Both the position numbers and the translations under genes were made by a program. From Shigella phage SFPB, in sequence record OQ031072: a DNA stretch of 64,000 nucleotides. One strand, written 5' to 3'. Positions 21,566-57,863 of this stretch are shown here, piece after piece; position 1 is the stretch's first letter; each line of letters starts with the position of its first letter. A model generated the notes under the pieces. The model did no database searches, was not told where the DNA came from, and was given only the letters and a program-made list of their open reading frames with translations.

Positions 21566-21836
21566 AGAACAATGGGATATCAAAGAGCTAATTAGCGAAG
21601 CTGGAAATGGTAGTGAGATGTATATGATACGTGGTCACGTCCCAGATGCACTTGCTATTGAGATGATAGACCACTACTCCAACGGATTCTATAAAGAGTT
21701 TGGAGAGCCAAATATTGAACGTACTTGGACAAAACCAGTACCAGACGGAACAGGAAACTGTTCAGTTATCTACCATATTGTAGACCCAAAGAAATGTAAA
21801 TCAGCTATGGCTGTAACATTTGTAACTTTTGATTGA
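21531..21836 (+). CDS. hypothetical protein
   Basis: ORF track 101 aa. Confidence 0.35.
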   Translation: MRQFMRQLIMAREQWDIKELISEAGNGSEMYMIRGHVPDALAIEMIDHYSNGFYKEFGEPNIERTWTKPVPDGTGNCSVIYHIVDPKKCKSAMAVTFVTFD

Positions 21837-21846
21837 GAGAAATATT

Positions 21847-22728
21847 ATGAAAACTACTATTCGAGTTCTACTTAATTCAAATTCCAAAGGTTCTCATCAA
21901 GAGACCTTCAACATTATCCAGTTCCCTTCTGGGGAGATTGGTGGTAACTTCTCAGAAGACTTAGTAGACTTTGCTGAACATGCTGCTGGTAAGATTGAAA
22001 ACGTAATATTCACTGTACAAGGTTATGACAAAGACACACTCTTTGCATTGGCTATGGCTAAAGAAGCAATTGACCGTTTGATTCCTCAGAAAGCAACCCT
22101 GAAAACTGTTGTCTTTGGATTCTTACCAAATGCTCGCTATGACCGTCACATGTTTAAAGGTGATGCAGCAGCACTTAAAGTCTTTGCAAATCTTGTAAAT
22201 GCTATGGAGTTCGATGCAGTATGTGCTCTGGATACTCACAGTAATGTTGCAGAGAATTTGTTTAAGAGCTTCTACAACCTCCCTCAAAAAGAGGCAGCAG
22301 TCCACTTTGCAAGTGACCCACGCATTGATTACTTAGTGGCTCCAGATGCAGGTGCAGCTAAGAAGACTGAAGAGGCTGCTAAAGAGGTTGAGAAACCTTA
22401 CATTACAATGGCTAAGGTACGAAACCTGAAAACTGGTGAAATCACTGGTATGCGAATCCTTGATGATGTAGACTTGACAGGTAAGACCGTCATGATTCTG
22501 GATGATATCTGTGACGGTGGTCGAACATTTATCGAGGCTGCAAAGTATCTTCGTGAAGCTGGAGCAGAACGTGTAGAACTGTATGTCACTCATGGGATTT
22601 TCTCTAAAGGTGTTGAAAATCTCCTTGACAATGGTATCGACCATATCTACACTACAAACTCACTAGGGGATGAAAAAGACCGTGGTCTTTCCCACTTCTC
22701 ACAAGTGACCGTAGCAAATATTGAATAA
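21847..22728 (+). CDS. ribose-phosphate pyrophosphokinase (PRPP synthetase)-like; possible ADPR-PP synthetase
   Basis: PRPP-binding loop VMILDDICDGGRTF; ATG 21847 after GAGAG RBS (track start 21829); adjacent to NAMPT-like gene. Confidence 0.7.
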   Translation: MKTTIRVLLNSNSKGSHQETFNIIQFPSGEIGGNFSEDLVDFAEHAAGKIENVIFTVQGYDKDTLFALAMAKEAIDRLIPQKATLKTVVFGFLPNARYDRHMFKGDAAALKVFANLVNAMEFDAVCALDTHSNVAENLFKSFYNLPQKEAAVHFASDPRIDYLVAPDAGAAKKTEEAAKEVEKPYITMAKVRNLKTGEITGMRILDDVDLTGKTVMILDDICDGGRTFIEAAKYLREAGAERVELYVTHGIFSKGVENLLDNGIDHIYTTNSLGDEKDRGLSHFSQVTVANIE

Positions 22729-22772: not shown

Positions 22773-24599
22773 ATGACTAAATCAATCTATGCAGTACCAG
22801 CAGGTCTTAATGCAGATGCTTATAAAGCGGGTCATATCTATCAGTATCCAGATGCTACACAGTATCTTATGTTGAACTTAACACCTCGTGGAGATAAATG
22901 GTTTAACTCTCCGTTAGAGATTGATGGTGTTGTAGCTTTTGGTATTCAGCGTTTTGTAAAAGACTATCTGGTAGACCACTGGAATGCAACGTTCTTTGAA
23001 CGTGATAAGAAAGAAGCCATTGACGAAATCTTGGAAATCATGAATGGTGTCCTTGGTGCAGATACTATTGGTCGTCAACATTGGGAAGAACTTCATGACT
23101 TGGGTTACCTACCTGTTGAAGTCTACTCTGTAGAGGAAGGTACAATTGTCCCTATGCGTGTCCCGATGATTGTCTTCAAAAATACTGTAGAGGGATTCCA
23201 TTGGGTAGCTGGTTACCTTGAAGATGCTTTCTCTGCTGAAATCTGGAAAGCTTGTACGATTGCAACTATTGCACTGCATTACAAACGTATTTGTAAGCAA
23301 TGGGCTGATTTAACCTGTGACAACGACTCCCATTTACCTTGGCAGTGTCATGACTTTGCAATGCGTGGCATGTCTGGCTTCACAGATGATGCGTTTAACG
23401 CAGTAGGACACCTGACAAGCTTTAAAGGCACTGACAGCTTCCCTGCTGTCTACACTGCTAAACGTTCTTATGGTCAGTTTATGGAAGTAAGTGATATCGG
23501 CAACTCTGTACCAGCTACTGAACACTCTGTGATGTGCGCAAACATTTCATGGAATATGAAAGACTTGTCAGAGGAAGATATTCATTCACAGTACATCATG
23601 CGGTCTGATAGCTTGCTGGATGCAAAACGTTGGCGTGGTGAGGTTAAAACCTTTGAGCATTTACTGGTAGACGTATATCCAACTGGTATTGCAAGTGTTG
23701 TTTCAGATACTTACAACTTCTGGCGTACTGTTACAGAGATTCTGCCAGAGCTACGTAATGTAATTCTGAATCGTGATGGTAAGTTGGTAATTCGTCCAGA
23801 CTCTGGAGACCCTGTTCACATTGTTACAGGTTACAAAGCCGTTGAATGGGAAACTGCTAAGTCAATGTTCTACAAGCACATGAAAGGTCTTGCACCAGAT
23901 AATACCCATCTGCATGACACAATCTTGAATTGTGAAATGTCTGATATTGGTTTTGGGTTCTCTGCTTGGTTAATCTCTGAAGGTTATGAGATGGTTGTTG
24001 AAAATGAAGATTTTGATTATATTGATACAATCAACCTGATTACCGCTCAGAAAACTGGACAGTTTACTGTGAAGCGTATGTTAACAGCAGAAATTGATGG
24101 AGCTATCCACACGCTGTATAACATATTTGGTGGCACTGTTAACTCCAAAGGGTACAAAGTACTGGATGAGCACATTGGGCTAATCTACGGTGATTCTATC
24201 ACTCTGGAAAGGGCTAATGAGATTCTGTCACGTCTTGCTGATAAAGGTTTTGCAAGTTCTAACGTGGTGTTTGGTGTAGGCTCATATACCTATCAGTACC
24301 TGACCCGTGACACCTTTGCATTTGCTGTTAAAGCAACTCTTGCACAGATGGATGGTCAAGAAATTATGCTGGCTAAAGACCCTAAAACTGACAGTGGTCT
24401 TAAGAAGTCTGCTTTTGGTGGGGTTGTCCCTATGTGGGATGGTGACAAGCTGGTAGCTGTAGATGGTTTTGGATTTGCAGAGTTTGAAGGTGCAATTGAC
24501 AATTGCCATAGTGCTTTGAAACTGGTATTTAGCAATTCACAGGCTTGTAACCGTGTTAACCTGCGTGATGTTCGAAATACTATTGACAAGCAACTTTAA
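22773..24599 (+). CDS. nicotinamide phosphoribosyltransferase (NAMPT/NadV) family protein
   Basis: 608 aa; NAMPT motifs NADAYKAGH and RPDSGDP. Confidence 0.8.
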   Translation: MTKSIYAVPAGLNADAYKAGHIYQYPDATQYLMLNLTPRGDKWFNSPLEIDGVVAFGIQRFVKDYLVDHWNATFFERDKKEAIDEILEIMNGVLGADTIGRQHWEELHDLGYLPVEVYSVEEGTIVPMRVPMIVFKNTVEGFHWVAGYLEDAFSAEIWKACTIATIALHYKRICKQWADLTCDNDSHLPWQCHDFAMRGMSGFTDDAFNAVGHLTSFKGTDSFPAVYTAKRSYGQFMEVSDIGNSVPATEHSVMCANISWNMKDLSEEDIHSQYIMRSDSLLDAKRWRGEVKTFEHLLVDVYPTGIASVVSDTYNFWRTVTEILPELRNVILNRDGKLVIRPDSGDPVHIVTGYKAVEWETAKSMFYKHMKGLAPDNTHLHDTILNCEMSDIGFGFSAWLISEGYEMVVENEDFDYIDTINLITAQKTGQFTVKRMLTAEIDGAIHTLYNIFGGTVNSKGYKVLDEHIGLIYGDSITLERANEILSRLADKGFASSNVVFGVGSYTYQYLTRDTFAFAVKATLAQMDGQEIMLAKDPKTDSGLKKSAFGGVVPMWDGDKLVAVDGFGFAEFEGAIDNCHSALKLVFSNSQACNRVNLRDVRNTIDKQL

Positions 24600-29089: not shown

Positions 29090-29638
29090 ATGAAGAAATT
29101 TGTTTTAGGTTTGTGCTTATTCTTTACAGCACATTTAGCTACAGCGTCTGACTGTCCAGAGCTTACAATCAGTCAGAAAGTTAATATGTTAAAAGCATAT
29201 AACTATGGCGAAGGACAGATGGGAAAAGGTTGGGGAATCCCTTTAGCAGCTATAGCCTTACAAGAGTCACAATTAGGTGTCATGTTAGAAAATAAAAAGA
29301 CTCATGATTATGGTGTTTTCCAAAATCACTTGAAGACTGTTGTAAAGCGTAACAAGGTATCTCCAAAGGTTGCTAAGAAGAAGCTAGTAAGTGACTTCCA
29401 TTACTCAGCGAAAGAGGCTCATAAGGAGCTATTATTCTGGACTAAGGTTCATGGTAACCCAGATGGAAAGTACTCTATGAAGCGTGTCCTAGCTTCTTAT
29501 AATGCTGGTTACAAATACAAGATTCCAAAGGCTAGACAATACTCTCAAGATGTGTACAATAACATGAAACTGCTGGCTCAATGTGAGTTTGCAACAAACA
29601 TTAAAAAGGTAAAATATGAGCGAATCAAAACAATTTGA
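29090..29638 (+). CDS. secreted lytic transglycosylase-like protein
   Basis: Signal peptide MKKFVLGLCLFFTAHLATA; SLT-like motifs ALQESQLG and SYNAGYKY; ATG 29090 after AGGAG. Confidence 0.45.
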   Translation: MKKFVLGLCLFFTAHLATASDCPELTISQKVNMLKAYNYGEGQMGKGWGIPLAAIALQESQLGVMLENKKTHDYGVFQNHLKTVVKRNKVSPKVAKKKLVSDFHYSAKEAHKELLFWTKVHGNPDGKYSMKRVLASYNAGYKYKIPKARQYSQDVYNNMKLLAQCEFATNIKKVKYERIKTI

Positions 29639-30311
29639 CATGGTTCTGTGTCATGCTTATGATATCAAGCCACTTGATTTAGATATCAGTTCTGCAAGTT
29701 GGTCAGATATTGCTAAAGCTGACTTTGCAGATACAGCAAGAAATGTTGTGTGTAGCTTTGAAGACTTCCACTCAACAAAGACACAGATTCCTTGTCAGGA
29801 TTTGCTAACAGGTAAAACTGTATATGTTGGTCGTAACAGCCTTATCTTGGTTGCAAAGAACTTGGAAGAAAAACGTAAAATGGTCTTAGCAGACATTGAT
29901 GGTGTTCTTACAAGTTTTGACAAGAAACTTAATGCAACTCTGTTAGATGATGGTACTTACTCACAGTATACTAACTTGGTAGACTCTCGCAGAGCTAAAC
30001 CAACATATGTTTTTAACATCCTGTGTGGTATATCAAGAAATGCTGATATAGGATTCTTAACTGCTCGTGGAGAATCACAAAGAGTTGTCACACATCTTTT
30101 CCTGAATGAGAATGTAGACAGTGATTTCCTACTGTTTATGCGTGGATTTGGTGACAATGAGATTAGTGCAGAAAGTTTGAAAGTTCGTATGCTTCAGTCT
30201 TGCATTCTACCTTACTATGATGTAGTATGCTTTATAGAAGATACGGTGAAGAACGTGGCAAAGGTTGAAAGAATCTTACCACACATCAAAACAATGCTTG
30301 TTAAAAACTGA
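29616..30311 (+). CDS. HAD-family phosphatase (possible 5'-deoxynucleotidase)
   Basis: HAD motif I LADIDGVL. Confidence 0.45.
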   Translation: MSESKQFDMVLCHAYDIKPLDLDISSASWSDIAKADFADTARNVVCSFEDFHSTKTQIPCQDLLTGKTVYVGRNSLILVAKNLEEKRKMVLADIDGVLTSFDKKLNATLLDDGTYSQYTNLVDSRRAKPTYVFNILCGISRNADIGFLTARGESQRVVTHLFLNENVDSDFLLFMRGFGDNEISAESLKVRMLQSCILPYYDVVCFIEDTVKNVAKVERILPHIKTMLVKN

Positions 30312-32187: not shown

Positions 32188-32380
32188 TTTCTGCACTAAG
32201 TGTTCTGTTGAGATGTTTGGAAAAGACACAGGGGACTTAAAAGGCCTCTTTACAAAAGCAGAGTTTGAAGCTGGTTCAGCAATGCCAGTAATCTGTGAAG
32301 GTTGTGGTGCTTTATGGGTAGACCATGAAGGTAACCGAGTTAAACCATCTGAAGATAACGAACGTTGGGAGCATTACTAA
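32180..32380 (+). CDS. small zinc-ribbon protein
   Basis: 66 aa with CTKC...CEGC. Confidence 0.35.
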   Translation: MADFCTKCSVEMFGKDTGDLKGLFTKAEFEAGSAMPVICEGCGALWVDHEGNRVKPSEDNERWEHY

Positions 32381-32381
32381 T

Positions 32382-33176
32382 ATGGGTATCGTAAAAATTA
32401 TTAAAGGTGATATCTTTAAAGACTTTGATGGTAAGAAATTTGATATCATTGGTCACGGTTGCAACTGCATGAACTTGATGGGTGCAGGTATCGCAGCAAC
32501 AATTGCCAAACGTTACCCAAAAGCTTATGAAACTGATGCTGAAGTTTATGCTACAGTAGGTGGTGAAAATCATAACCCTAAGCATCTAATGCTTGGTAAC
32601 ATCTCTGTAGCACGTTTTAAGCAGGGTCGAATTGCTAACCTTTACACTCAGGTTATCACTGGCAAAGATGCACGATACAACGCCTTAGAAGCAGCTTTAC
32701 AGCGTCTTAACAACTACTGTAAAGTTAATCAACTTAAGAAAGTTGGACTTCCTATGATTGGTGCAGGGATTGGTGGTCTTGACAGCATGGCTGTGCTGTC
32801 TATCATCAATCAGACCATGAAAGATGTTGACGTTTATATGTATGTCTATGAAGATAAGATGTACAGTCAGTTGACTAGTCCGGTTACTGGTTGGGAAAAC
32901 TTTAGTGAACCTCAATACTTTGATGGTGTTGCCGTGGTAGGCAAGGATAAAGTTACTCTCAAGGTGAAGCGTAATGGTAAGGTACACACCAGTTACCCTC
33001 CGGTTGATAAGTACAATCGAAGTAACGCTCAAGTTACCCACCCGTTACAAGGCCATTGTCACAGAGCCGTAACATTTGGTGATGATGCAAGTGTGTATAT
33101 CGGTGCTGCTACAGAAGAGTTTGCAGAGGATTATATCACACATGAGAATGTTAACTATGTTGAAGCACGTAACTAA
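32382..33176 (+). CDS. macro-domain (ADP-ribose binding/processing) protein
   Basis: GDIFKDFDGKKFDIIGHGCNCMNLMGAGIAATI matches macro-domain GDIT...NAAN...GGGV core; ATG 32382 (track start 32325 overlaps upstream ORF). Confidence 0.5.
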   Translation: MGIVKIIKGDIFKDFDGKKFDIIGHGCNCMNLMGAGIAATIAKRYPKAYETDAEVYATVGGENHNPKHLMLGNISVARFKQGRIANLYTQVITGKDARYNALEAALQRLNNYCKVNQLKKVGLPMIGAGIGGLDSMAVLSIINQTMKDVDVYMYVYEDKMYSQLTSPVTGWENFSEPQYFDGVAVVGKDKVTLKVKRNGKVHTSYPPVDKYNRSNAQVTHPLQGHCHRAVTFGDDASVYIGAATEEFAEDYITHENVNYVEARN

Positions 33177-33201
33177 TAAGTTACCTAAATAGACATAGAC
33201 A

Positions 33202-33250
33202 AGCCCTCCAAAGTTTGAGTTTAAAATCTCAGGTAAGGAGGGCTTTTTCA
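33202..33250 (+). terminator. hairpin + T-run
   Basis: AGCCCTCC...GGAGGGCT + TTTTT. Confidence 0.5.
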
Positions 33251-33430
33251 TTTCAAATTTGTGCAGGTGCAATTGCATAGAACTCTGGACAGATTTCTTT
33301 AGCTGAACTCCAAAGGGAAAATTCATTTTCAATTTGTGCAGGTCTAGACTCCAAAGAGCTTTTTCATTTTCAATCTGTGCAGATGCAGTTGGACTCCAAA
33401 GGGAAAATTCATTTTCAATTTGTGCAGGTA
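33250..33430. repeat. tandem direct repeats (about 40 bp unit, 3-4 copies; core TTCATTTTCAATTTGTGCAGG)
   Basis: Copies near 33250, 33326, 33362, 33406 with ACTCCAAAG(G/A)G spacers. Confidence 0.6.
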
Positions 33431-33602: not shown

Positions 33603-33631
33603 TTGACTCTATGAATCCAGTTTTGTAGTAT
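33603..33631 (+). promoter_or_regulatory. sigma70-like promoter TTGACT-N17-TAGTAT (first cassette)
   Basis: Consensus match. Confidence 0.55.
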
Positions 33632-33685: not shown

Positions 33686-33892
33686 ATGTTATATCAACGG
33701 GAATTAATGATTGTAGACAATAACAAAACTAAAAAACGTCGCTTCTTTATGTTAATCTGTGACGTGTGGCAAAGAATATCTGAAAAGGATTATGACAAGT
33801 ATGTTGATACATCAATCAGGTCGGATTGTTATTTGACAAATCACACAAGACAGTTTACAAGACATACAGCAGTTTACTACTATGACGTTTAA
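33686..33892 (+). CDS. hypothetical small protein (cassette-driven)
   Basis: ORF track 68 aa; cassette + ATG. Confidence 0.45.
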   Translation: MLYQRELMIVDNNKTKKRRFFMLICDVWQRISEKDYDKYVDTSIRSDCYLTNHTRQFTRHTAVYYYDV

Positions 33893-33903
33893 AGGGCTTG
33901 ACA

Positions 33904-34065
33904 ATGATTAAAGAAGGCAATGTAATAAGCTACAAAGATTTAGACGGATACCCAAAAATTGGGAAAGTTTTCTACCTTTACAAGTCAGTGATGGATAATG
34001 ACTGCATAGCCCTAACAAATGGCGACAAGATAACCATGAAAGATTTTATAAAAATTATTTCATAA
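33904..34065 (+). CDS. hypothetical small protein (53 aa)
   Basis: ATG 33904; below track cutoff. Confidence 0.3.
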   Translation: MIKEGNVISYKDLDGYPKIGKVFYLYKSVMDNDCIALTNGDKITMKDFIKIIS

Positions 34066-34154
34066 AGTGCTTTACATGGGGTTTAAAAAGGTAGTATCTT
34101 AAGCCCCAGATAAAGAGCTTTACCACTAAACAATCCTAAACTGGAGATTCTAAA

Positions 34155-34538
34155 ATGAAAAAATATTATATGCCAAAATTCATCAAGAAAGAAAACTTTC
34201 GTGATGCTCTGGAAAAATACATGAATGAGCAGTTCAAAGGTAAATTAATTGTTGTCCACGCATACAATTTTAAGTATGATGTAAATGGAAACAAGACAAA
34301 TCACTATACCGCTACGATGCTGGATGGTACACTCTCAGGTGAAAAAGCCATTATCAATGCACTGGCTGGACGTGGTAAAACGTTGATACGTTGTGATAAA
34401 CGCCGATATCAGGGCAGTTCTTATGGTTATGAGGATGCAGTCTATCACCTTGATAACATGGGTTACAATGTCGAAAAAGCTGGCGTGTCTCAAATGATTG
34501 GTAGTGATGGATATGTGACAATTTTTAAAATTAACTAA
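34155..34538 (+). CDS. hypothetical protein (cassette-driven)
   Basis: ORF track 127 aa; cassette upstream. Confidence 0.5.
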   Translation: MKKYYMPKFIKKENFRDALEKYMNEQFKGKLIVVHAYNFKYDVNGNKTNHYTATMLDGTLSGEKAIINALAGRGKTLIRCDKRRYQGSSYGYEDAVYHLDNMGYNVEKAGVSQMIGSDGYVTIFKIN

Positions 34539-34625
34539 TAAAGTGCTTTACATGGGGTTTATAGTTCAATAAGATAAGCCCCAGATAAAGAACTTTATTA
34601 CTAACCTAAACTGGAGATTCAAAAA

Positions 34626-34883
34626 ATGGCTACCATTAAAAACATCGTAATTACTGCAAAATCCCGTGATGATGCTCGTGCAACTGCTAAAAAATTAAAT
34701 GGTAAAGTGGTTGACAACGGAAAAGATTCTACTGTAAGATGGGGCGTAAAGACAGACAAAAAATTAACTCTTAAACATAGCTCTTACAATATGTTTAAAG
34801 GTGTAAAAACTATCGGTAACACTAACGTGTTTACAAAACAGGGTTACAAAATGCACTTAGCATTAATTGGCAATTTAATCTAA
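34626..34883 (+). CDS. hypothetical protein (cassette-driven)
   Basis: ORF track 85 aa; cassette upstream. Confidence 0.5.
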   Translation: MATIKNIVITAKSRDDARATAKKLNGKVVDNGKDSTVRWGVKTDKKLTLKHSSYNMFKGVKTIGNTNVFTKQGYKMHLALIGNLI

Positions 34884-34889
34884 AAGTAC

Positions 34890-34918
34890 TTTACATGGGG
34901 TTTATAAGTCGATAGTAT
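34890..34918 (+). promoter_or_regulatory. cassette promoter TTTACA-N17-TAGTAT inside GGGG/CCCC stem-loop
   Basis: Representative cassette copy. Confidence 0.5.
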
Positions 34919-34969
34919 AAGCCCCAGATAAAGAGCTTTACCAACAATCCTAAACTGGAGATTCAAAAA

Positions 34970-35482
34970 ATGAAATCAGTCGAAAGCACCTTTGAAGTTC
35001 AAAAAGAAAAATTTACTATCATCTTTGAAGCAATGAATGTTTATGAGCCTTCCCATTGTGTGGATAACTGGCAATTCACTGATGAGCATAAAGGAGGAGT
35101 TACAATCAAAGTTAAAAACTCAGAACGTAACGGCTACAAATATGCAATTCCTATGCACTATGCGCTTTCACAGCTTGCCAGTGATTACGCAAAACAGGGA
35201 AGGGATAACCCATCATTAGCCGCTTACAAGAGCTTACAAGATGAACTAGAAAGGGATTTAGGGGCTAATAGCTACATTCTATACGCCTCAGTAGTTGACG
35301 CTGAAGGCAACACGGTTTTAAATAGTTTTTCCCTTGCGTATGGTTTTGATTGGTGCTATCTTGACGGGGAAGATTTAGATTCACGCTTAAAAGAGGAAGT
35401 AAGCAATTCAGGTGCTGAAGAGGAAGTTTTAGAGCGCTTGGAAGATTTAAAAGATAGTGTGATGAATATCTTTAATATCTAA
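34970..35482 (+). CDS. hypothetical protein (cassette-driven)
   Basis: ORF track 170 aa. Confidence 0.5.
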   Translation: MKSVESTFEVQKEKFTIIFEAMNVYEPSHCVDNWQFTDEHKGGVTIKVKNSERNGYKYAIPMHYALSQLASDYAKQGRDNPSLAAYKSLQDELERDLGANSYILYASVVDAEGNTVLNSFSLAYGFDWCYLDGEDLDSRLKEEVSNSGAEEEVLERLEDLKDSVMNIFNI

Positions 35483-35567
35483 AAGTACTTTACATGGGGG
35501 TTATCAAGTTGCTAAGATAGCCCCAGATAAAGAGCTTTACCAACAATCCTAAACTGGAGAATCTAAA

Positions 35568-35858
35568 ATGAAAATTCCTGCTAATGTACGCTCAAAGTTA
35601 AGCCAATTACTACAAAACATTTCTTTTGTAGAATCTCATAGACGTTCACAGGATGTTATAGAGTGGTATCATGGGAAGATTAACAAGAAAGAAGTTTTAA
35701 TCTGTATTTGGAACTTTCAAAAAGAACATGGCAAGCCATTGCTTCAGGTTGACATTTATGATAATACTAGCAAATCAGCAGTAAAATCAAAAGCTGATAT
35801 GATTGATTCATATGAAATTAGTCACACTGGTAGATTATCACACGTTGGGAAGGTTTAA
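35568..35858 (+). CDS. hypothetical protein (cassette-driven)
   Basis: ORF track 96 aa. Confidence 0.5.
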   Translation: MKIPANVRSKLSQLLQNISFVESHRRSQDVIEWYHGKINKKEVLICIWNFQKEHGKPLLQVDIYDNTSKSAVKSKADMIDSYEISHTGRLSHVGKV

Positions 35859-35859
35859 A

Positions 35860-36186
35860 ATGTTACTTTCTGGTATCGCAATTCTGATTTCAATTGTGGC
35901 GCTATGTAAAGCTTATCAAGCCTCAGCATATGCAGATAAGGCCATCACAAGGAAAGTTAAAATAAACCTTGTAAGTAGCTTCTTAGAGCGTTTAAGCGTG
36001 GAACAATTACAACGTTTAGAGATGGGCTTCAGGTTTAAGGCAGACACTTATCAAATCAGTGATGTTTTATCCGGTAACTTTGAGCTTGTTAATGATTACA
36101 ATACGTTACTAAATGCTATTCAAGCTACTGATTTAAAAGAATATTATCCGGCTATTGCACAAGAAATTAATAAACGCAAAAAATAG
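35860..36186 (+). CDS. membrane protein (N-terminal TM)
   Basis: ATG 35860 after GGAAGG; MLLSGIAILISIVALC (track start 35803 overlaps upstream gene). Confidence 0.4.
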   Translation: MLLSGIAILISIVALCKAYQASAYADKAITRKVKINLVSSFLERLSVEQLQRLEMGFRFKADTYQISDVLSGNFELVNDYNTLLNAIQATDLKEYYPAIAQEINKRKK

Positions 36187-36269
36187 CTTGCAAAGGCAAA
36201 TCAAAACAAGTAAAGTACTCATCAACGGGGCAAGCAAGCCCCCAACAATCCTAAACTGGAGAATCTAAG

Positions 36270-36542
36270 ATGTATACAACTAATAATGGCAGAACTTTAA
36301 ATGTAACTTTAAAGCACTATGTAGATGGTGTATTAAACTTTGAAGACTTGCAAGCAGAACAGCACTTGTTAGCTTGGCAAGTAGCAGGATTACAAAAAAC
36401 CGCCACCGGATATGGGAAGAAAATCCCTACATCTTGGAAAGTTCGATACCTTGGAAAGTTACGCAGAATTTATCAAGATGTTTACAGTAATAGTGGTGTA
36501 AGTTACATTATTGTTAGTGGTAAAAAGTTACATCTTGCTTAA
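36270..36542 (+). CDS. hypothetical protein (cassette-driven)
   Basis: ORF track 90 aa. Confidence 0.5.
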   Translation: MYTTNNGRTLNVTLKHYVDGVLNFEDLQAEQHLLAWQVAGLQKTATGYGKKIPTSWKVRYLGKLRRIYQDVYSNSGVSYIIVSGKKLHLA

Positions 36543-36629
36543 TAAAGTGCTTTACATGGGGTTTATAAGTCGATAGTATAAGCCCCAGATAAAGAACTTT
36601 ATCACTAACCTAAACTGGAGATTCAAAAA

Positions 36630-37031
36630 ATGGCTACGAACAAAGATATAGCAGTACTGAAAGCACGTTTGACCGTTAACCGTATTAATGCTATCACATC
36701 AACCGCACCAGATGAGGTTTTACATAACATTATCGGTAAAATTCAGGGTGTAATTTTAGACGTTGAAAACATCAGAAATTCACTTGCAAATGTTGCACAG
36801 GGTGTTACACTTGACGGCGCACAATATGAAATGGCTGATATGCTTTCAAAGTCAAAAGTTCTTAATAAAGAATTAGACTTGAAAATGTTTCGATTTGCTG
36901 TTAAAGTGTGGTTATCTGTTGAGTTTGATGCTAACTTTGCAATTGCTGATTTCTTTGCAACGTGGTTACAACGTAATTTAGAAAAGCAAGATTTTCAAGA
37001 TATCTGCGATACAATTTACGCAGAACTTTAA
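36630..37031 (+). CDS. hypothetical protein (cassette-driven)
   Basis: ORF track 133 aa. Confidence 0.5.
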   Translation: MATNKDIAVLKARLTVNRINAITSTAPDEVLHNIIGKIQGVILDVENIRNSLANVAQGVTLDGAQYEMADMLSKSKVLNKELDLKMFRFAVKVWLSVEFDANFAIADFFATWLQRNLEKQDFQDICDTIYAEL

Positions 37032-37127
37032 AAAACGTTTGACACTAATTTTTAGATAGATTAAAGTACTCATCAACGGGGCAAGACAGAAGCCCCAACA
37101 ATCCTAAACTGGAGATTCAAAAATGAA

Positions 37128-37679
37128 ATGCTTTCACGGAACTACTCAAGAAAATTTTGTAAACCTGCTGAGTGGTGGAGAAAACCTTCAGGGGCTTGGA
37201 ATTGCTCAGACAGTGACGGGTGTTTTTATGTTTACCCTGTTAGTAAGTTCTATGATGTAGAGGATATGGACGCAGAACAAATCACTGAAGAGGGTATTAG
37301 AAACGCTCTGGATAGCGCAAGTATCACAGCGGCTTTCCAGATGAAATCACAAAAAATCGTTATCTTGGAACTTGATATTCCAGAAGATGAATTACAAGAT
37401 GACTGGAGCTGTGAGAACATGAGCGATGTTGCAAGCTTTACAGAATACTTTGATAGGGCTTGGATTAAAAAGATTTACACAACTGAATTTAATGCTATGT
37501 ATGCACCGTTTTTTGTACCTAACTTGAACAATAGAAATCTGGGCTATGTACCTGATGAATTACATAACATTGCTGTAATGATTCAACGTAGCGATGAGAT
37601 GAATAACGTGTTTTGTGATTTGTGCGACAACTTGCAATCTAACATAACAGAAAGCACTGTAAGCGACGTTTTAGCGTAA
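37128..37679 (+). CDS. hypothetical protein (cassette-driven)
   Basis: ORF track 183 aa; cassette-spaced ATG at 37123 is in another frame, start uncertain. Confidence 0.45.
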   Translation: MLSRNYSRKFCKPAEWWRKPSGAWNCSDSDGCFYVYPVSKFYDVEDMDAEQITEEGIRNALDSASITAAFQMKSQKIVILELDIPEDELQDDWSCENMSDVASFTEYFDRAWIKKIYTTEFNAMYAPFFVPNLNNRNLGYVPDELHNIAVMIQRSDEMNNVFCDLCDNLQSNITESTVSDVLA

Positions 37680-37742
37680 ACCATACAATCACACTAACAA
37701 CATTCAAAAGCCCTGTATAGGGGCTTACAAGGGGTTTAAATC

Positions 37743-37979
37743 ATGTTAACGACTATCTATCTCATGCTTGCCGTTTGCTCTGGTGCAAATAATTGTCATT
37801 ATGGCATTATGGAATCTTTCGAAGGCACTAAACAAAATGCAGTAGAGGCTTGCAATATTGCTAGACAGGACTACCCGAAATCGTCTATAATGGGCTGTTA
37901 TGTCTTACAAGGTGAAGACGAAAGCACAGAATACTACGAAAACGTTAATGAAGATGAGTTTTTAGAGATTTACAAATAA
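37743..37979 (+). CDS. small protein with N-terminal hydrophobic segment
   Basis: ORF track 78 aa; MLTTIYLMLAVCSG. Confidence 0.4.
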   Translation: MLTTIYLMLAVCSGANNCHYGIMESFEGTKQNAVEACNIARQDYPKSSIMGCYVLQGEDESTEYYENVNEDEFLEIYK

Positions 37980-38053
37980 AGTACTTTACATGGGGCTTTA
38001 AACCTTGCTACTATAAGCCCCAGATAAAGAGCTTTCCTAAACTGGAGATTCAA

Positions 38054-38203
38054 ATGATGACGCATACTATTGAGACAGTTTTTAACAACCCTGTATTCTC
38101 AGAGATGATTTTCTCATTTATCATGATGTTACTAGTAAAAATCATGAAAAAAGCAGAAAAACTACATTTAAAGAAAAAATCTATTGTAAACCGTATTAAG
38201 TAA
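38054..38203 (+). CDS. small membrane protein (49 aa, cassette-driven)
   Basis: Cassette + ATG; hydrophobic core IFSFIMMLLV; below cutoff. Confidence 0.3.
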   Translation: MMTHTIETVFNNPVFSEMIFSFIMMLLVKIMKKAEKLHLKKKSIVNRIK

Positions 38204-38250
38204 AGTTACAGTATCTATCAAGCCCACTTCCTAAACTGGAGAATCTGAAA

Positions 38251-38592
38251 ATGGCACATGTAACCATAATTACTGATAAAGAAAATTCATCTTGGTCTAC
38301 AAAAGTAAGTGATAAAGTGTCGCCTTTACAGTGCCTAAAATACTTTGAGCAATGGAATCGCGGCGAGGATGTTAGCCCGTTTCATGTGATGCGTATAGTT
38401 CACACTGACAAAGAAGGGAATAAAACAACCTTAAACAGTGAATACTATGCAACACGATTTGAAACAAAAGTTAACACAATGAAAATATTACGTGAATCCG
38501 GCTATGGTCACATTGCCGCTTTAATCTGGAGTGATTTACTCAAAGACCAAAAAATGACCTATGTCAAGACAGAAAAAATCTTTATAAGCTAA
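38251..38592 (+). CDS. hypothetical protein (cassette-driven)
   Basis: ORF track 113 aa. Confidence 0.5.
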   Translation: MAHVTIITDKENSSWSTKVSDKVSPLQCLKYFEQWNRGEDVSPFHVMRIVHTDKEGNKTTLNSEYYATRFETKVNTMKILRESGYGHIAALIWSDLLKDQKMTYVKTEKIFIS

Positions 38593-38787
38593 TCAATGAC
38601 TTACAAAATTCTTTGAAAAAACTGTTGACAATACCCCTTGACATTGATAGATTTGTTCGAGGGGTTTATCTAAAAGGGATTCACTTAAAAGATTCTTTAT
38701 AGATAAGCGTAAAAAGTACTTGCAAAGGTCTAATCATATCTATATAGTATCTTCAAAAGGCAACTTCCTAAACTGGAGAATCACTAA

Positions 38788-38928
38788 ATGTTAGATATCA
38801 TTAAAAACCCTATCCTTTGCGGTATGATTGTCTCTGTTGTGTTGCCATTAGCAATACTCATCATTGGTGAAATCTCAGATAAACTTTTTGATAAAAAACT
38901 ACTTGCAATACAGAATCAAAACAAGTAA
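38788..38928 (+). CDS. small membrane protein (46 aa, cassette-driven)
   Basis: Cassette + ATG; below cutoff. Confidence 0.3.
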   Translation: MLDIIKNPILCGMIVSVVLPLAILIIGEISDKLFDKKLLAIQNQNK

Positions 38929-38992
38929 AGTATTTATCAACGGGGAGGAGACTTCCCCACTAAAACAAAATTCCTAAACTGGAGAATCTAGA

Positions 38993-39520
38993 ATGAATAA
39001 GTTCCAAGCAATTAATCATATCCGTTCCAATGCAGTAATGAGCAAGCCAGTAAAAGACACCTTCGAATTTCGCTGTAATGACAAGTTGTTTGCAGTCATT
39101 ACGAAAGGGGAAGATAAAAAGTATTATGTACATCGCCAAAACGTTAAGGCGGTAACAGCAGATAACTTTATGCAAGCTGTTGCAAAAATTCTACCGGATT
39201 TTATGGAACTGGTAGCAGAACTTTGTGAACACTGCATCAAGTCATCAAAGGCAGAATTAAACCGCTTTAAAATGGCTTATGAGCGTTCTATCAAGTCTCA
39301 TAACATGTATATCATGCCATTGGCTTTTGGTACTCAGGCAATGGGAACAGGTTGTCATCCTTGCCACCTTTACGATGTAGAAAGCATTTACCTTAGTGAG
39401 ACAAAAGATATTGATTTTAGTTTACAGTTAGGACAAGCATTAAACGATATGATTAAATTACACGAAAAATCCGTAAAAGATATGCAAAAAGAGCTTGACG
39501 AAATCATCGTAAATCTATAA
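38993..39520 (+). CDS. hypothetical protein (cassette-driven)
   Basis: ORF track 175 aa. Confidence 0.5.
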   Translation: MNKFQAINHIRSNAVMSKPVKDTFEFRCNDKLFAVITKGEDKKYYVHRQNVKAVTADNFMQAVAKILPDFMELVAELCEHCIKSSKAELNRFKMAYERSIKSHNMYIMPLAFGTQAMGTGCHPCHLYDVESIYLSETKDIDFSLQLGQALNDMIKLHEKSVKDMQKELDEIIVNL

Positions 39521-39580
39521 AGTACTTATCAACGGGGAGGGAATGACCTTCCCCAACAATCCTAAACTGGAGACTAGAAA

Positions 39581-39844
39581 ATGAATAATCAAGAAATCAC
39601 TATCCTGTTACAAATTGGCACTGACAAAGAAGATATCCAACTTTGCAAACGTATTGAGAGTGATTGGTTCAACGGTGAAATCATCGCAGAATCTTATGAA
39701 GTAGTTGGATTCATGAATGGTGAAGTTGTAAGCCATTTTGGTTTAACTAAATCTGAAGCCGTTGCAAAGTATGACGTTTTATCTTGTGAGATTCTTACAA
39801 AATACAATGAAAAAAGACTTGCAACTTATGCAGCAATGAATTAA
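39581..39844 (+). CDS. hypothetical protein (cassette-driven)
   Basis: ORF track 87 aa. Confidence 0.5.
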   Translation: MNNQEITILLQIGTDKEDIQLCKRIESDWFNGEIIAESYEVVGFMNGEVVSHFGLTKSEAVAKYDVLSCEILTKYNEKRLATYAAMN

Positions 39845-39907
39845 TATTACTTTCAACGGGGAGGAGACTCCCCACTAAAACAAAATTCTAAACTGGAGAC
39901 TAGAAAG

Positions 39908-40084
39908 ATGAATTTTGAACAGCGTATGATTAGTAAATTTGGTGCTAAACGTTGGGAAGAGATGAAAAAAGAGCACGAAGAAAGAAAAAATGAAGAAACG
40001 GTAGTTATCACTGGTGTAGACTTACTAAATCACTCAGTTACTAACTATATCTTATCTGGTAACTCTTATAAGAAAGTTATCTAA
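39908..40084 (+). CDS. hypothetical small protein (58 aa, cassette-driven)
   Basis: Cassette + ATG; below cutoff. Confidence 0.3.
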   Translation: MNFEQRMISKFGAKRWEEMKKEHEERKNEETVVITGVDLLNHSVTNYILSGNSYKKVI

Positions 40085-40156
40085 TAAGTGTTGACAAGGG
40101 GTGTAAAAGCCCCTACTATTTAGAACCTAAACAATCCTAAACTGGAGAATCTGAAA

Positions 40157-40408
40157 ATGGCTACTATCCGCGCAACTGTTAATAATTTTGGCTTCCACGT
40201 ATTAGATGTTAAATTCGATATGGTTGGAACTGCCGATGCTTTCGGCATGGTTGATATGTGTCTAAAAGCAACTATTCAGGACTACAATCAATCTGAGTGG
40301 TTCTGGAAAGAAGTAAAACAAGAAGTCTTAAAGGATGGCGTATCCTCTTACTATTGGGGTGATTCTCTTATCACGCTTTACTATGAAGTTGACGGCTTCA
40401 ATAACTAA
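40157..40408 (+). CDS. hypothetical protein (cassette-driven, last of array)
   Basis: ORF track 83 aa. Confidence 0.5.
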   Translation: MATIRATVNNFGFHVLDVKFDMVGTADAFGMVDMCLKATIQDYNQSEWFWKEVKQEVLKDGVSSYYWGDSLITLYYEVDGFNN

Positions 40409-56664: not shown

Positions 56665-56670
56665 AATATT

Positions 56671-56746
56671 AGCAGTGTAGCATAACTGGAAATGCACCAG
56701 CCTCTGAAGCTGAAAGATTAAGGTTCAAATCCTTATACTGCTGCCA
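56671..56746 (+). tRNA. tRNA-Gln (anticodon CTG)
   Basis: Acceptor AGCAGTG/TACTGCT; loop CTCTGAA; G73; CCA. Confidence 0.55.
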
Positions 56747-56777
56747 CTTCTAAGGGTTCTTACGAGAGTCCTTAAAT

Positions 56778-56854
56778 GTGGCCTTATCATAAATGGATAA
56801 TGACCCATGCTGTGAACATGGTCTATACGGGTTCGATTCCCGTAGGTCACCCCA
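56778..56854 (+). tRNA. tRNA-His (anticodon GTG)
   Basis: Anticodon stem CCATG/CATGG, loop CTGTGAA; C73; CCA. Confidence 0.6.
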
Positions 56855-56861
56855 ATTTAAT

Positions 56862-56937
56862 AGCTCAATTAGCTTATATGGTTAAAGCGCGTGTCTGAAA
56901 AACATGAGAACAGGGTTCAAATCCCGATGGGCTACCA
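56862..56937 (+). tRNA. tRNA-Phe (anticodon GAA)
   Basis: Loop CTGAAAA; A73; CCA; T-stem weak. Confidence 0.5.
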
Positions 56938-56953
56938 ACTTTATAGGTGCATA

Positions 56954-57688
56954 ATGAAAGAGATGACAGAACAAAGTAAAGAGATTTTTAATCTCCTTAA
57001 AACCGGTAATGGTTTCTCAAACCCTCTTATTACTGGTGCAGCAGTTCTTGGTGGTACAGTTGCCGCTTCTCAGTCATTAGTAACTTCTATTGGTTCTGTA
57101 TCAGACCCAGCCACACAGCAAATTCTTATTGCTGCTGGACTGACAACAGCCTTATTAGGAAGCTTCACAACAAGCCTTGGAAGTACAACTTCAACGACAA
57201 GTACACTCACTGAGTATGGACAAAAGTCTGTAGATGAGTTTTCACAGCGTATGCAGGTAGCTAAAGGCTACTCTAACGTCATGGGAGCAGTAGGTGAGCA
57301 AGTTGGATGTACACCATTTAGTGGCATTATGGGTGTAGCTACTGAGTACGGCAATAAAGCGATGGATTTGATTAATACCTCCATAGACGCTGTAAACAGC
57401 GTTCTAAGCGATTTGCAAGATGCAATCGATAAAGGACTAGGGACAATCTCTGAACTCGCTACACAGGCTGTTACAGCGATTAATGAGGGCATTGCAAAGA
57501 TTACTGCATATGCTAACGAAGTAGCTCAGATGATTGCAGATGAAGCAGCATTGATTGCAGAATACCTGAAAACAAATATTAATGGTTTCCTTGCAAATGT
57601 TCTACCAAGCTGGTTTGATGATTCATGTAAAACTGGTGTGATTGATACTATTGCAACTCCAGAGATGAAAGAAGCTCTGAACAAATAA
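56954..57688 (+). CDS. hypothetical Ala/Ser/Thr-rich protein with N-terminal hydrophobic segment
   Basis: ATG 56954 just after tRNA-Phe (track start 56891 overlaps tRNA). Confidence 0.45.
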   Translation: MKEMTEQSKEIFNLLKTGNGFSNPLITGAAVLGGTVAASQSLVTSIGSVSDPATQQILIAAGLTTALLGSFTTSLGSTTSTTSTLTEYGQKSVDEFSQRMQVAKGYSNVMGAVGEQVGCTPFSGIMGVATEYGNKAMDLINTSIDAVNSVLSDLQDAIDKGLGTISELATQAVTAINEGIAKITAYANEVAQMIADEAALIAEYLKTNINGFLANVLPSWFDDSCKTGVIDTIATPEMKEALNK

Positions 57689-57689
57689 T

Positions 57690-57781
57690 GGAAGATTAAC
57701 CCTAAAGGTAAGGGAGCAGTTTGCTAAACTGCCAGTAACCGAGAAATCGGCGTACCAGTTCAAGTCTGGTATCTTCCTCCA
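57690..57781 (+). tRNA. tRNA-Ser (anticodon GCT), long variable arm
   Basis: Acceptor GGAAGAT/ATCTTCC; anticodon stem GCAGT/ACTGC, loop TTGCTAA; CCA. Confidence 0.6.
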
Positions 57782-57787
57782 AATTAT

Positions 57788-57863
57788 GTGTCGGTGTCAG
57801 AAATGGTTATGTGCCTGTCTGCAAAACAGGTTTATGAGGGTTCGAGTCCCTTCCGATACTCCA
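57788..57863 (+). tRNA. tRNA-Cys (anticodon GCA)
   Basis: Anticodon stem CCTGT/ACAGG, loop CTGCAAA; U73; CCA. Confidence 0.6.

What the first reader, a model, noticed from the sequence alone, without database searches (positions are those of the whole stretch)
32382..33176. Macro-domain protein in the early region: possible ADP-ribose signal or modification eraser
Seen: N-terminal 150 aa carry GDIF...DIIGHGCNCMNLMGAGIAATI, matching the macro-domain ADP-ribose pocket, followed by about 100 aa of unknown C-terminal extension. Inference: with the NAD+ salvage pair and the DUF2829-like ORF, the phage may carry several functions aimed at NAD+/ADP-ribose-based immunity (removing ADP-ribosylation, or degrading ADPR-derived signals).
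Basis: partly seen in the sequence, partly recalled or inferred. Interest (0 to 1): 0.55.

Follow-up and report, generated by a model that had tools for sequence, protein, structure and literature searches.

The report
Phage macrodomain enzyme with orphan tail
This gene of a Felix O1-like Shigella phage encodes a genuine ADP-ribose-handling macrodomain enzyme, related to two recently described phage counter-defence enzymes and fused to a lineage-specific domain of unknown fold; the gene is already annotated in public records and its exact substrate is untested.

Summary
Window 32382-33176 (+) encodes a 264-aa protein. Residues 1-160 form a macro domain by Pfam and by a confident AlphaFold2 model that matches TARG1, Poa1p and DarG. 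Residues 161-264 form a conserved extension with no detectable relatives outside Ounavirinae-like phages. The exact protein is already deposited as 'macro domain-containing protein' of Shigella phage SFPB, and RefSeq calls its orthologues 'phosphatase'. It belongs to the large phage Tk.4/Poa1p-like macro family, found in about 2,800 phage records. Two members have recently been characterised. T4 Tk.4 (AdfM) is genetically required against DarTG2. Vibrio phage Gary Adpp is an ADPR-1''-phosphate phosphatase that feeds NARP1 and so counters aRES. The window protein keeps the histidine whose mutation abolishes Adpp's anti-defence effect. Like Tk.4 and Adpp, it has Gln where TARG1 and DarG have their catalytic Lys. 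Motifs and loop length group it with Tk.4 rather than with the NARP1-adjacent Adpp type, but the phylogeny is unresolved. The phage does carry NARP1 7.8 kb upstream. My best reading, at moderate confidence, is a Tk.4-type eraser of DarT2-type DNA ADP-ribosylation. A distal Adpp is a close rival. I found no support for degradation of Thoeris signals, and Pfam did not detect the DUF2829 ORF.

The parts
32382..33176 (+). CDS, 264 aa: N-terminal macro domain plus C-terminal orphan domain. Identical to WBF69649.1 of Shigella phage SFPB.
   Evidence: (PHROG 335, E 3.5e-105)
32382..32861 (+). Macro domain, residues 1-160. Motifs: KGD (8-10), HGCNC (25-29), MGAGIA (33-38), NLYTQ (86-90), LPMIGAGIGG (123-132).
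   Evidence: Pfam residues 25-141; Foldseek TARG1/Poa1p/DarG; invariant columns H25 N28 G36 T89 Q90 P124 G127 G129; alignment with Tk.4, Adpp, Poa1p, TARG1 and DarG
32862..33173 (+). C-terminal domain, residues 161-264. Mostly beta strands with one helix. Conserved N-x-S-x-P-x-x-F-D-G segment (residues 173-182) and a basic dipeptide in a hairpin (about residues 195-196, K-R in the window protein). No homologue or fold match outside the family.
32366..32371 (+). Shine-Dalgarno-like TGGGAG, 10 nt before the ATG. The upstream ORF stops at 32380, so translational coupling is likely.
   Evidence: read from the sequence
33201..33255 (+). Terminator-like hairpin (AAGCCCUCC...GGAGGGCUU) followed by a U-run. 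It closes the transcription unit that ends with the macro gene.
   Evidence: dG -21.8 kcal/mol, z -3.1; inverted repeat I1

Best explanation
The gene encodes a soluble two-domain enzyme. The N-terminal domain is a Tk.4-type (Poa1p/TARG1/DarG-clade) macrodomain. It binds ADP-ribose and hydrolyses a substituent attached at C1'' of the distal ribose. It does this with a His-Asn (HGCNC) / Thr-Gln (NLYTQ) active site rather than the Lys used by TARG1 and DarG. The most likely job is counter-defence in the manner of T4 Tk.4 (AdfM): removing the ADP-ribose that DarT2-type toxins place on thymidines in single-stranded phage DNA, so that replication can proceed. The C-terminal domain is specific to Ounavirinae-like phages. 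In the model it packs against the macro domain, and I infer that it acts as a substrate- or target-recognition module. Shown here: the fold, the pocket motifs, family membership, the domain architecture and its restriction to one lineage. Inferred: catalysis, the substrate and the role of the C-terminal domain. My confidence that it is an active ADP-ribose C1'' hydrolase used in counter-defence is about 0.75. My confidence that DarT2-type DNA adducts are the main substrate is about 0.4.
For: The macro fold and pocket are confirmed. The closest characterised phage relative by sequence is T2/T4 Tk.4: 40% identity over residues 3-131, E 2e-19. It shares HGCNC, MGxGxA, NLYTQ, IGAGIG and the same short TQ-x3-G loop length. 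T4 tk.4 is conditionally essential on DarTG2-expressing hosts, and a clean knockout is sensitised (HIDEN-SEQ preprint). T4 has, to my knowledge, no NARP1, so this macro type has a role that does not depend on NARP1 (own knowledge, not tested here). The structural neighbours TARG1, DarG and SCO6735 all hydrolyse thymidine-linked ADP-ribose on ssDNA (JACS 2026). The DarG profiles of PADLOC and NCBIfam are the only defence or NCBI models that hit the macro part (E 4e-15 and 1e-14). A PhiKZ macrodomain was shown biochemically to remove DarT2 adducts, which shows that phages use this strategy. About 128 NARP1-adjacent macros (Adpp type) carry an aromatic insertion after the Gln; motif counts of 103 YGQY, 13 YTQY, 4 HAQ and 2 NLYTQY account for 122 of them, and every sequence I read has it. 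The window family lacks this insertion. The gene is never next to NARP1, even in relatives at about 40% identity where gene order is otherwise conserved.
Against: There is no biochemical or genetic test for any Ounavirinae homologue. The T4 evidence is genetic only, and de-ADP-ribosylation of DNA by Tk.4 itself has not been shown. The residue aligned with the catalytic Lys of DarG (K80) and TARG1 (K84) is an invariant Gln. The biochemically validated PhiKZ AdfM is a true DarG-like macro (137.8 bits to the DarG model, against 55.5 for the window protein) and only 23% identical. The NJ tree does not resolve whether the window family is closer to Tk.4 or to Adpp: the deep nodes have 3-17% bootstrap, and identities to both are about 30-35%. 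The C-terminal domain does not resemble the DarT-binding domain of DarG and has no consistent positive charge that would suggest DNA binding.
Confidence: 0.4

Rival explanations
1. It is a distal Adpp. The macro domain is an ADP-ribose-1''-phosphate phosphatase that converts the ADPR-1''P made by RES-domain NAD+ phosphorylases (aRES defence) into ADPR. The phage's own NARP1 enzymes (Adps at 21829-22728, Namat at 22773-24599) then rebuild ADPR into NAD+. This would be a split NARP1-AP pathway.
For: The phage encodes NARP1 on the same strand 7.8 kb upstream, orthologous to the founding Bas63 operon. NARP1 alone fails against aRES, and a Poa1p-like macro (Gary Adpp) restores it; purified Adpp converts ADPR-1''P to ADPR. 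The window protein is 30% identical to Gary Adpp (E 3e-17) and 35% identical to the Pseudomonas phage JG004 NARP1-adjacent macro. Gary His24, whose H24A mutation abolishes the anti-aRES effect of the operon, aligns with invariant H25 here and with Poa1p H23. The single-sequence PDB search ranks Poa1p first. RefSeq and PHROGs call the family 'phosphatase'. The survey in that paper looked only within two genes of NARP1, so Ounavirinae would have been missed. Macro and NARP1 co-occur with conserved synteny across deep divergence.
Against: The gene is about 17 genes away from NARP1 and never adjacent to it in any relative examined. It lacks the aromatic insertion after the Gln that is found in the NARP1-adjacent macros and, in shorter form, in Poa1p. 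It has HG rather than the predominant HQ before the CNC. Tk.4-type macros are common in phages which, to my knowledge, lack NARP1. The extra C-terminal domain has no counterpart in Adpp.
Confidence: 0.3
2. It erases some other ADP-ribose adduct or ADPR-derived molecule. Candidates are protein or RNA ADP-ribosylation by a host defence ART (CmdT-like or other) or by a phage ART, O-acetyl-ADPR, or an ADPR-containing immune signal such as His-ADPR.
For: TARG1-clade macros are promiscuous at C1'' (protein Glu, nucleic-acid ends, thymidine; established knowledge, and for thymidine). The lineage-specific C-terminal domain could redirect specificity. The PhageMaP preprint notes a Bas63 protein (gp107) with slight structural similarity to the NAD-binding domain of RNA 2'-phosphotransferase, in the same general region.
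Against: No ART domain appeared in the families printed by the Pfam scans of 96 window ORFs; each scan printed only its 25 best-matched families. No family member has been shown to have these activities. cADPR cleavage in phages is assigned to an unrelated fold. T-even phages carrying Tk.4 are still restricted by CmdTAC.
Confidence: 0.15
3. It is a non-catalytic ADP-ribose binder: a reader or a sponge that sequesters ADPR-based signals.
For: It lacks the Lys/Asp dyad of TARG1. Many macro domains only bind.
Against: H25, N28, T89 and Q90 are invariant across the family. They coincide with residues used by the active enzymes Poa1p and Adpp. The close relatives Tk.4 and Adpp have enzyme-dependent phenotypes.
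Confidence: 0.05

Closest known systems
T4/T2 Tk.4 = AdfM (T4 type), anti-DarTG2 macrodomain (bioRxiv 10.1101/2025.11.20.689424)
   Same: Same Poa1p-like phage macro subfamily. 40% identity, E 2e-19. Shared HGCNC, MGxGxA, NLYTQ and IGAGIG motifs and a short TQ-x3-G loop. Gln in place of the DarG/TARG1 Lys.
   Different: Tk.4 is a single domain of 155 aa. The window protein has an extra conserved C-terminal domain of about 100 aa, an insertion after the second helix (residues ~55-70), and lacks the conserved Trp of the GG-x-W segment. The host phage also has NARP1.
Adpp, the NARP1-associated ADPR-1''P phosphatase of Vibrio phage Gary (bioRxiv 10.64898/2026.01.28.702374)
   Same: Same family, 30% identity, E 3e-17. 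The functionally required His is conserved (Gary H24 = window H25). The phage carries NARP1.
   Different: Adpp genes lie within two genes of Adps/Namat, whereas this gene lies 7.8 kb away. Adpp has HQ(C/A)NC and an aromatic insertion after the Gln. Adpp has no C-terminal domain.
Yeast Poa1p (PDB 6LFQ-6LFU), ADP-ribose-1''-phosphate phosphatase
   Same: Best single-sequence PDB hit (E 3e-5). H-x-C-N-C motif with H23 = H25. Foldseek E 2e-9.
   Different: About 28% identity. Poa1p has FTS in place of YTQ and long insertions. It works in tRNA-splicing by-product metabolism, not in phage defence.
Human TARG1/OARD1 (PDB 4J5R) and Streptomyces SCO6735 (5E3B)
   Same: Best structural match (target-normalised TM 0.86) and best profile match (9e-17). 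Both enzymes reverse thymidine-linked DNA ADP-ribosylation.
   Different: The TARG1 catalytic residues K84 and D125 align with Q90 and G131.
DarG antitoxin (PDB 5M31, 5M3I) and PhiKZ gp104 AdfM (Cell Rep 2026, PMC13309987)
   Same: The macro fold is related (E about 1e-14 to DarG models). Like DarG, the layout is a macro domain followed by a second domain.
   Different: Only 23% identical to PhiKZ AdfM. It lacks the FPTK lysine. It scores 54.5 bits against the 250-bit cutoff of the NCBIfam DarG equivalog model, and the C-terminal domain does not match the DarT-binding half of the model.

Membership tests
Macro domain (Pfam PF01661) | Score above the Pfam gathering threshold | tested here: met
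   32.9 bits against a cutoff of 22, E 7e-8, residues 25-141
Macro domain (Pfam PF01661) | Three-layer alpha/beta/alpha macro fold | tested here: met
   AF2 pLDDT 88.4. Foldseek probability 1.00 to TARG1, Poa1p, DarG and viral macros; target-normalised TM up to 0.86.
Macro domain (Pfam PF01661) | ADP-ribose pocket loops: the Gly-rich phosphate loop 1, loop 2 (P-x-I-G-x-G) and the N-terminal Asp | tested here: met
   MGAGIA 33-38, LPMIGAGIGG 123-132 and KGD 8-10. These positions are invariant or nearly invariant in 22 homologues.
Macro domain (Pfam PF01661) | Actual ADP-ribose binding or hydrolysis | not testable with these tools
   Needs purified protein.
Phage Tk.4 / T4-type AdfM | Sequence signature HGCNC ... 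NLYTQ-x3-G ... IGAGIG without an insertion after the Gln | tested here: met
   Alignment; BLASTP 40% identity, E 2e-19; same PHROG 335.
Phage Tk.4 / T4-type AdfM | Single-domain protein of about 155 aa | tested here: not met
   264 aa with a conserved extra C-terminal domain.
Phage Tk.4 / T4-type AdfM | Protects the phage against DarTG2 | not testable with these tools
   Needs phage genetics. Shown only for T4.
Phage Tk.4 / T4-type AdfM | Phylogenetic grouping with Tk.4 to the exclusion of Adpp | tested here: inconclusive
   The NJ topology places it beside the Tk.4-type macros, but with 3-17% bootstrap at the deep nodes.
Adpp / NARP1-AP | Gene within the NARP1 operon (within two genes of Adps/Namat) | tested here: not met
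   7.8 kb and about 17 genes downstream of Namat, also in distant relatives. Criterion taken.
Adpp / NARP1-AP | Functionally required His of the H-x-(C/A)-N-C motif (Gary H24) | tested here: met
   H25 is invariant.
Adpp / NARP1-AP | Aromatic insertion after the conserved Gln (Q-Y-x-Y/W...) | tested here: not met
   Motif counts of 103 YGQY, 13 YTQY, 4 HAQ and 2 NLYTQY among about 128 NARP1-adjacent macros, and every sequence read has the insertion. The window family has TQVITG. This signature is my own observation, not a published criterion.
Adpp / NARP1-AP | NARP1 present in the same genome | tested here: met
   Pribosyltran/Pribosyl_synth protein at 21829-22728 and NAPRTase/NAMPT_N protein at 22773-24599.
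DarG antitoxin (NCBIfam NF048014, PADLOC PDLC02990) | Full-length match above the curated cutoff, including the C-terminal DarT-binding domain | tested here: not met
   54.5 bits against a cutoff of 250. Only profile positions 2-153 of 338 are matched. The C-terminal domain alone gives no hit at E<=1.
DarG antitoxin (NCBIfam NF048014, PADLOC PDLC02990) | Catalytic Lys in the FPTK motif | tested here: not met
   It aligns with Q90.
TARG1/OARD1 | Catalytic Lys84/Asp125 dyad | tested here: not met
   Q90 and G131 occupy the aligned positions.

The most novel reading that the evidence does not exclude
The orphan C-terminal domain may be an independently evolved effector- or substrate-targeting module. 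It could, for example, bind DarT2, a RES-domain NADase or another ART. That would make the protein a two-pronged inhibitor (enzymatic erasure plus sequestration or recruitment), analogous to DarG but built from an unrelated domain. It would also define a new small fold found only in Ounavirinae-like phages.
Probability: 0.12. Interest if true: 0.65.

Novelty: new variant of a known kind. Interest (0 to 1): 0.35.

Why it matters
Phage macrodomains have only just been tied to specific counter-defence roles: DarTG2 reversal and rescue of NAD+ reconstitution from aRES. Ounavirinae (Felix O1, Bas63 and Mooglevirus phages, which include therapy and typing phages) all carry this longer two-domain version alongside NARP1. 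Knowing which substrate it acts on would show whether these phages are intrinsically resistant to DarTG2, to aRES or to both. It would also show whether the Lys-less His/Gln active site of the Tk.4 family can cleave a base-ribose bond as well as a phosphate ester. The C-terminal domain is a cheap target for finding a new specificity or binding module. As an observation, however, it is an already annotated gene in a known family.

Tried and rejected
- **Word-index homologue search.** A search with the C-terminal domain alone returned nothing.
- **Exhaustive profile search.** The profile search of 1.84 billion representatives found only the same fusion family, two fragments of it, and two giant repeat proteins that Pfam shows to be unrelated (a retrotransposon and a Calx-beta protein). 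I treat those two as spurious.
- **Profile against PDB sequences.** The C-terminal profile gave nothing below E 0.6.
- **Similarity to the DarG C-terminal domain.** Rejected at the level of profile HMMs. An attempt to collect full-length DarG sequences for a profile-profile test returned only short stand-alone macros.
- **Phylogeny.** The NJ tree meant to decide between Tk.4 and Adpp was uninformative at the deep nodes. A first attempt timed out.
- **DarG-model bit scores.** They do not separate the Tk.4 type from the Adpp type.
- **DUF2829/Tad2 ORF and phage ART.** Two Pfam scans of 96 window ORFs listed neither. Each printed only its 25 best-matched families: the all-ORF scan left 20 of 45 unprinted, and the small-ORF scan left three, all weaker than E 0.0064.
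- **Rfam.** The downstream intergenic region gave only a chance-level hit.
- **Charge analysis.** The C-terminal domain shows no consistent basic or acidic character.

Full report
**Observation.** Window 32382-33176 (+) is an intact ORF of 264 codons. The reverse strand has no comparable ORF over the whole span. The ATG at 32382 is the likely start, for three reasons. The upstream ORF ends at 32380. A GGGAG lies 10 nt upstream. All homologues start M-[GAS]-I-V-K. Only one deposited record uses the longer 283-aa form from the ATG at 32325.

**Source.** The window belongs to an Ounavirinae phage of the Mooglevirus/Suspvirus group, with 90-95% nucleotide identity to Shigella phages Sf14/Sf16/Sf19, Citrobacter phages HP1/Mordin and Escherichia phage SUSP1. 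The exact protein sequence is WBF69649.1, 'macro domain-containing protein [Shigella phage SFPB]'. Its 90% identity cluster has 93 members, variously named 'phosphatase', 'macro domain-containing protein' or 'hypothetical protein'. As an annotation, the macro domain is therefore already public.

**Is it a macro domain?** Yes.
- Pfam PF01661 is above its gathering score (32.9 against 22 bits, E 7e-8).
- PHROG 335 ('phosphatase') matches end to end (E 3.5e-105).
- An AlphaFold2 model built on 22 homologues has mean pLDDT 88.4 and pTM 0.87.
- Foldseek against PDB gives human TARG1 first (E 2e-10, target-normalised TM 0.86), followed by yeast Poa1p and the DarG macrodomains of Thermus aquaticus and M. 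tuberculosis.
- A profile of the family against PDB sequences gives TARG1 9e-17, Mtb DarG 2e-16, BT1257, SCO6735 and Poa1p 5e-14.
- The pocket elements are conserved: KGD (8-10), the phosphate loop MGAGIA (33-38) and the second loop LPMIGAGIGG (123-132). H25, N28, G36, T89, Q90, P124, G127 and G129 are invariant in the 22-sequence alignment.

**Which kind of macro domain?** tblastn finds homologues of residues 25-157 in 2,789 phage records. These include the Tk.4 proteins of T-even phages, Vi1-like phages, rV5-like phages, Pakpunavirus and others. The full-length two-domain form occurs in only 242 records, all Ounavirinae-like.

Two members of this family have recently been given functions.
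- **T4 tk.4, named adfM.** It is the single T4 gene whose transposon insertions are lost on a DarTG2 host, and a clean knockout is sensitised (bioRxiv 10.1101/2025.11.20.689424).
- **Vibrio phage Gary Adpp.** In this and other phages a Poa1p-like macro gene sits inside the NARP1 operon. The purified protein converts ADPR-1''-phosphate to ADPR, and the three-gene operon overcomes the aRES defence, which NARP1 alone cannot do (bioRxiv 10.64898/2026.01.28.702374).

A third protein, also called AdfM, is PhiKZ gp104. It removes DarT2 adducts from DNA in vitro (PMC13309987). It is a true DarG-like macro: E 9e-25 to Mtb DarG and 137.8 bits to the NCBIfam DarG model. It is only 23% identical to the window protein.

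**Comparison with these references.**
- The window macro domain is 40% identical to T2 Tk.4 over residues 3-131 (E 2e-19) and 30% identical to Gary Adpp (E 3e-17).
- In a joint alignment the window family, Tk.4 and Adpp share H-x-(C/A)-N-C, M-G-x-G-x-A, N-x-Y-(T/G)-Q and I-G-x-G.
- The His (window H25) aligns with Poa1p H23. It also aligns with Gary H24, whose H24A mutation abolishes the anti-aRES effect of the operon.
- The catalytic Lys of TARG1 (K84) and DarG (FPTK) aligns with the invariant Gln90, and TARG1 D125 aligns with G131. The chemistry is therefore that of the Poa1p/Tk.4 type, not the TARG1/DarG type.

**Trying to separate the Tk.4 type from the Adpp type.**
- A neighbour-joining tree with 300 bootstraps recovers the two-domain family as a clade (85%) and places it beside Tk.4-type macros. 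The deep nodes have only 3-17% support, and identities to both groups are 30-35%.
- Bit scores to the DarG model do not separate the groups either.
- One qualitative character does. Every NARP1-adjacent macro sequence I read in the authors' Table S1 has an aromatic insertion directly after the Gln. Motif counts across the roughly 128 entries account for 122 of them: 103 YGQY, 13 YTQY, 4 HAQ-[KE]-YYGY and 2 NLYTQYTFW.
- Tk.4-type proteins (TQ-x-x-P-G) and the window family (TQ-x-x-x-G) have the same short loop. This loop follows the residue that is catalytic in TARG1, so it probably lines the C1'' side of the pocket. That last point is my inference.

**Genomic context.** The window contains the NARP1 pair. 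A PRPP-synthetase-like protein lies at 21829-22728 and a Nampt-like protein at 22773-24599. These are annotated 'ribose-phosphate pyrophosphokinase' and 'nicotinamide phosphoribosyltransferase' in relatives. NARP1 was discovered in Bas63, a Felixounavirus of the same subfamily.

The macro gene lies 7.8 kb and about 17 genes downstream on the same strand. Between them are rIIA, rIIB, a lysin-like gene, a HAD/PNK-like gene, the spanins and several small ORFs. The order Namat - rIIA - rIIB - ... - HAD_PNKP - ... - macro is retained in metagenomic relatives whose macro proteins are only about 40-50% identical. The gene is thus stably linked to the lineage but is never part of the NARP1 operon. It is the last gene before a strong hairpin plus U-run (33201-33255, dG -21.8, z -3.1).

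**The C-terminal domain (residues 161-264).**
- In the full-length model it is confidently placed (block pLDDT 80-92, pTM 0.87). It consists of six short strands and one helix.
- It is conserved in all ~250-aa homologues but diverges quickly. Only P177, G182 and Y239 are (near-)invariant, together with an N-x-S-x-P-x-x-F-D-G segment and a basic dipeptide.
- It has no Pfam, PADLOC or NCBIfam match and no PDB sequence match.
- The exhaustive profile search of 1.84 billion representative proteins returns only the same fusion proteins, fragments of them and two spurious repeat proteins.
- It does not match the DarT-binding half of the DarG models.
- Where the C-terminal domain is present, the Trp that nearly all other clade members have after loop 2 (GG-x-W) is lost. 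This may mark the docking surface. That is my inference.

**Interpretation.**
- Well supported (about 0.75): an active ADP-ribose C1'' hydrolase of the Tk.4/Poa1p-like phage family, used in conflicts with NAD+/ADP-ribose-based host immunity.
- Best reading of the substrate (0.4): a Tk.4-type eraser of DarT2-type thymidine ADP-ribosylation on phage ssDNA. The grounds are the closer sequence and loop signature, the NARP1-independent distribution of that type, the position outside the NARP1 operon, and the thymidine-ADPr activity of the structural neighbours TARG1, DarG and SCO6735.
- Main rival (0.3): a distal Adpp feeding NARP1. The conserved His, the 'phosphatase' homology to Poa1p and the presence of NARP1 keep this very much alive. 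The two are not mutually exclusive, because both reactions break a bond at C1''.
- Other adducts or signals (0.15) and a purely binding role (0.05) are less likely.
- Nothing supports degradation of Thoeris cADPR signals, which phages achieve with a different fold.

**Novelty and interest.** The gene is already annotated, the family is large and its functions are being worked out. A specialist would not be surprised by a macrodomain in a Felix O1-like phage. Two things have not been described: the conserved fusion to an orphan domain throughout Ounavirinae-like phages, and the unresolved question of whether this NARP1-carrying lineage uses its macrodomain against DarTG2, against aRES or against both. 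I rate it a new variant of a known kind, with interest 0.35.

Noticed in passing
window 33226-33429: Four direct copies of a 43-nt unit (core TTCATTTTCAATTTGTGCAGGT, 0-2 mismatches) lie in the ~510-bp gap after the macro gene. The unit is unique to this spot in the window and none are expected by chance. The first copy overlaps the terminator hairpin. There is no Rfam match. A gap of similar length exists in the related phages HP1 and SUSP1.
   Followed up: partly
window 33603-33631 and 33686-40408: A promoter-like TTGACT-17-TAGTAT is followed by a run of about 15 small + strand ORFs with no Pfam hits. Many are preceded by TTTACA-17/18-TAnnAT. This looks like a separate, possibly early host-takeover, block that starts right after the macro gene's terminator. 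The PhageMaP preprint reports that Bas63 gp107, probably in the equivalent block, has slight structural similarity to the NAD-binding domain of RNA 2'-phosphotransferase.
   Followed up: no
window 21829-22728 and 22773-24599: A PRPP-synthetase-like gene and a Nampt-like gene form the NARP1 NAD+ reconstitution pathway (Adps/Namat) first described in the related phage Bas63. They are not a classical NAD+ salvage pair.
   Followed up: partly
window 50520-51935 and 52101-57863: A 471-aa DUF2828+DUF7788 (Ro60/TROVE-like) protein lies immediately upstream of an array of 25 tRNA genes. The Bas63 orthologue (gp130) is reported to counter the 'ppl' defence system. No DUF2829 match was listed in the Pfam scans of 96 ORFs, each of which printed only its 25 best-matched families.
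   Followed up: partly
window 29616-30311: A 231-aa protein annotated 'polynucleotide kinase' in relatives has no Pfam hit here at E<=0.001. Distant orthologues give weak or faint HAD_PNKP hits. It looks like a HAD-type phosphatase-only PNK relative, conserved in synteny between rIIB and the macro gene.
   Followed up: no
residues ~131-136 of the protein (window ~32772-32789): The two-domain family has lost the Trp that follows loop 2 (GG-x-W) in Tk.4, Adpp, Poa1p, TARG1, DarG and BT1257. The loss coincides with the gain of the C-terminal domain.
   Followed up: no
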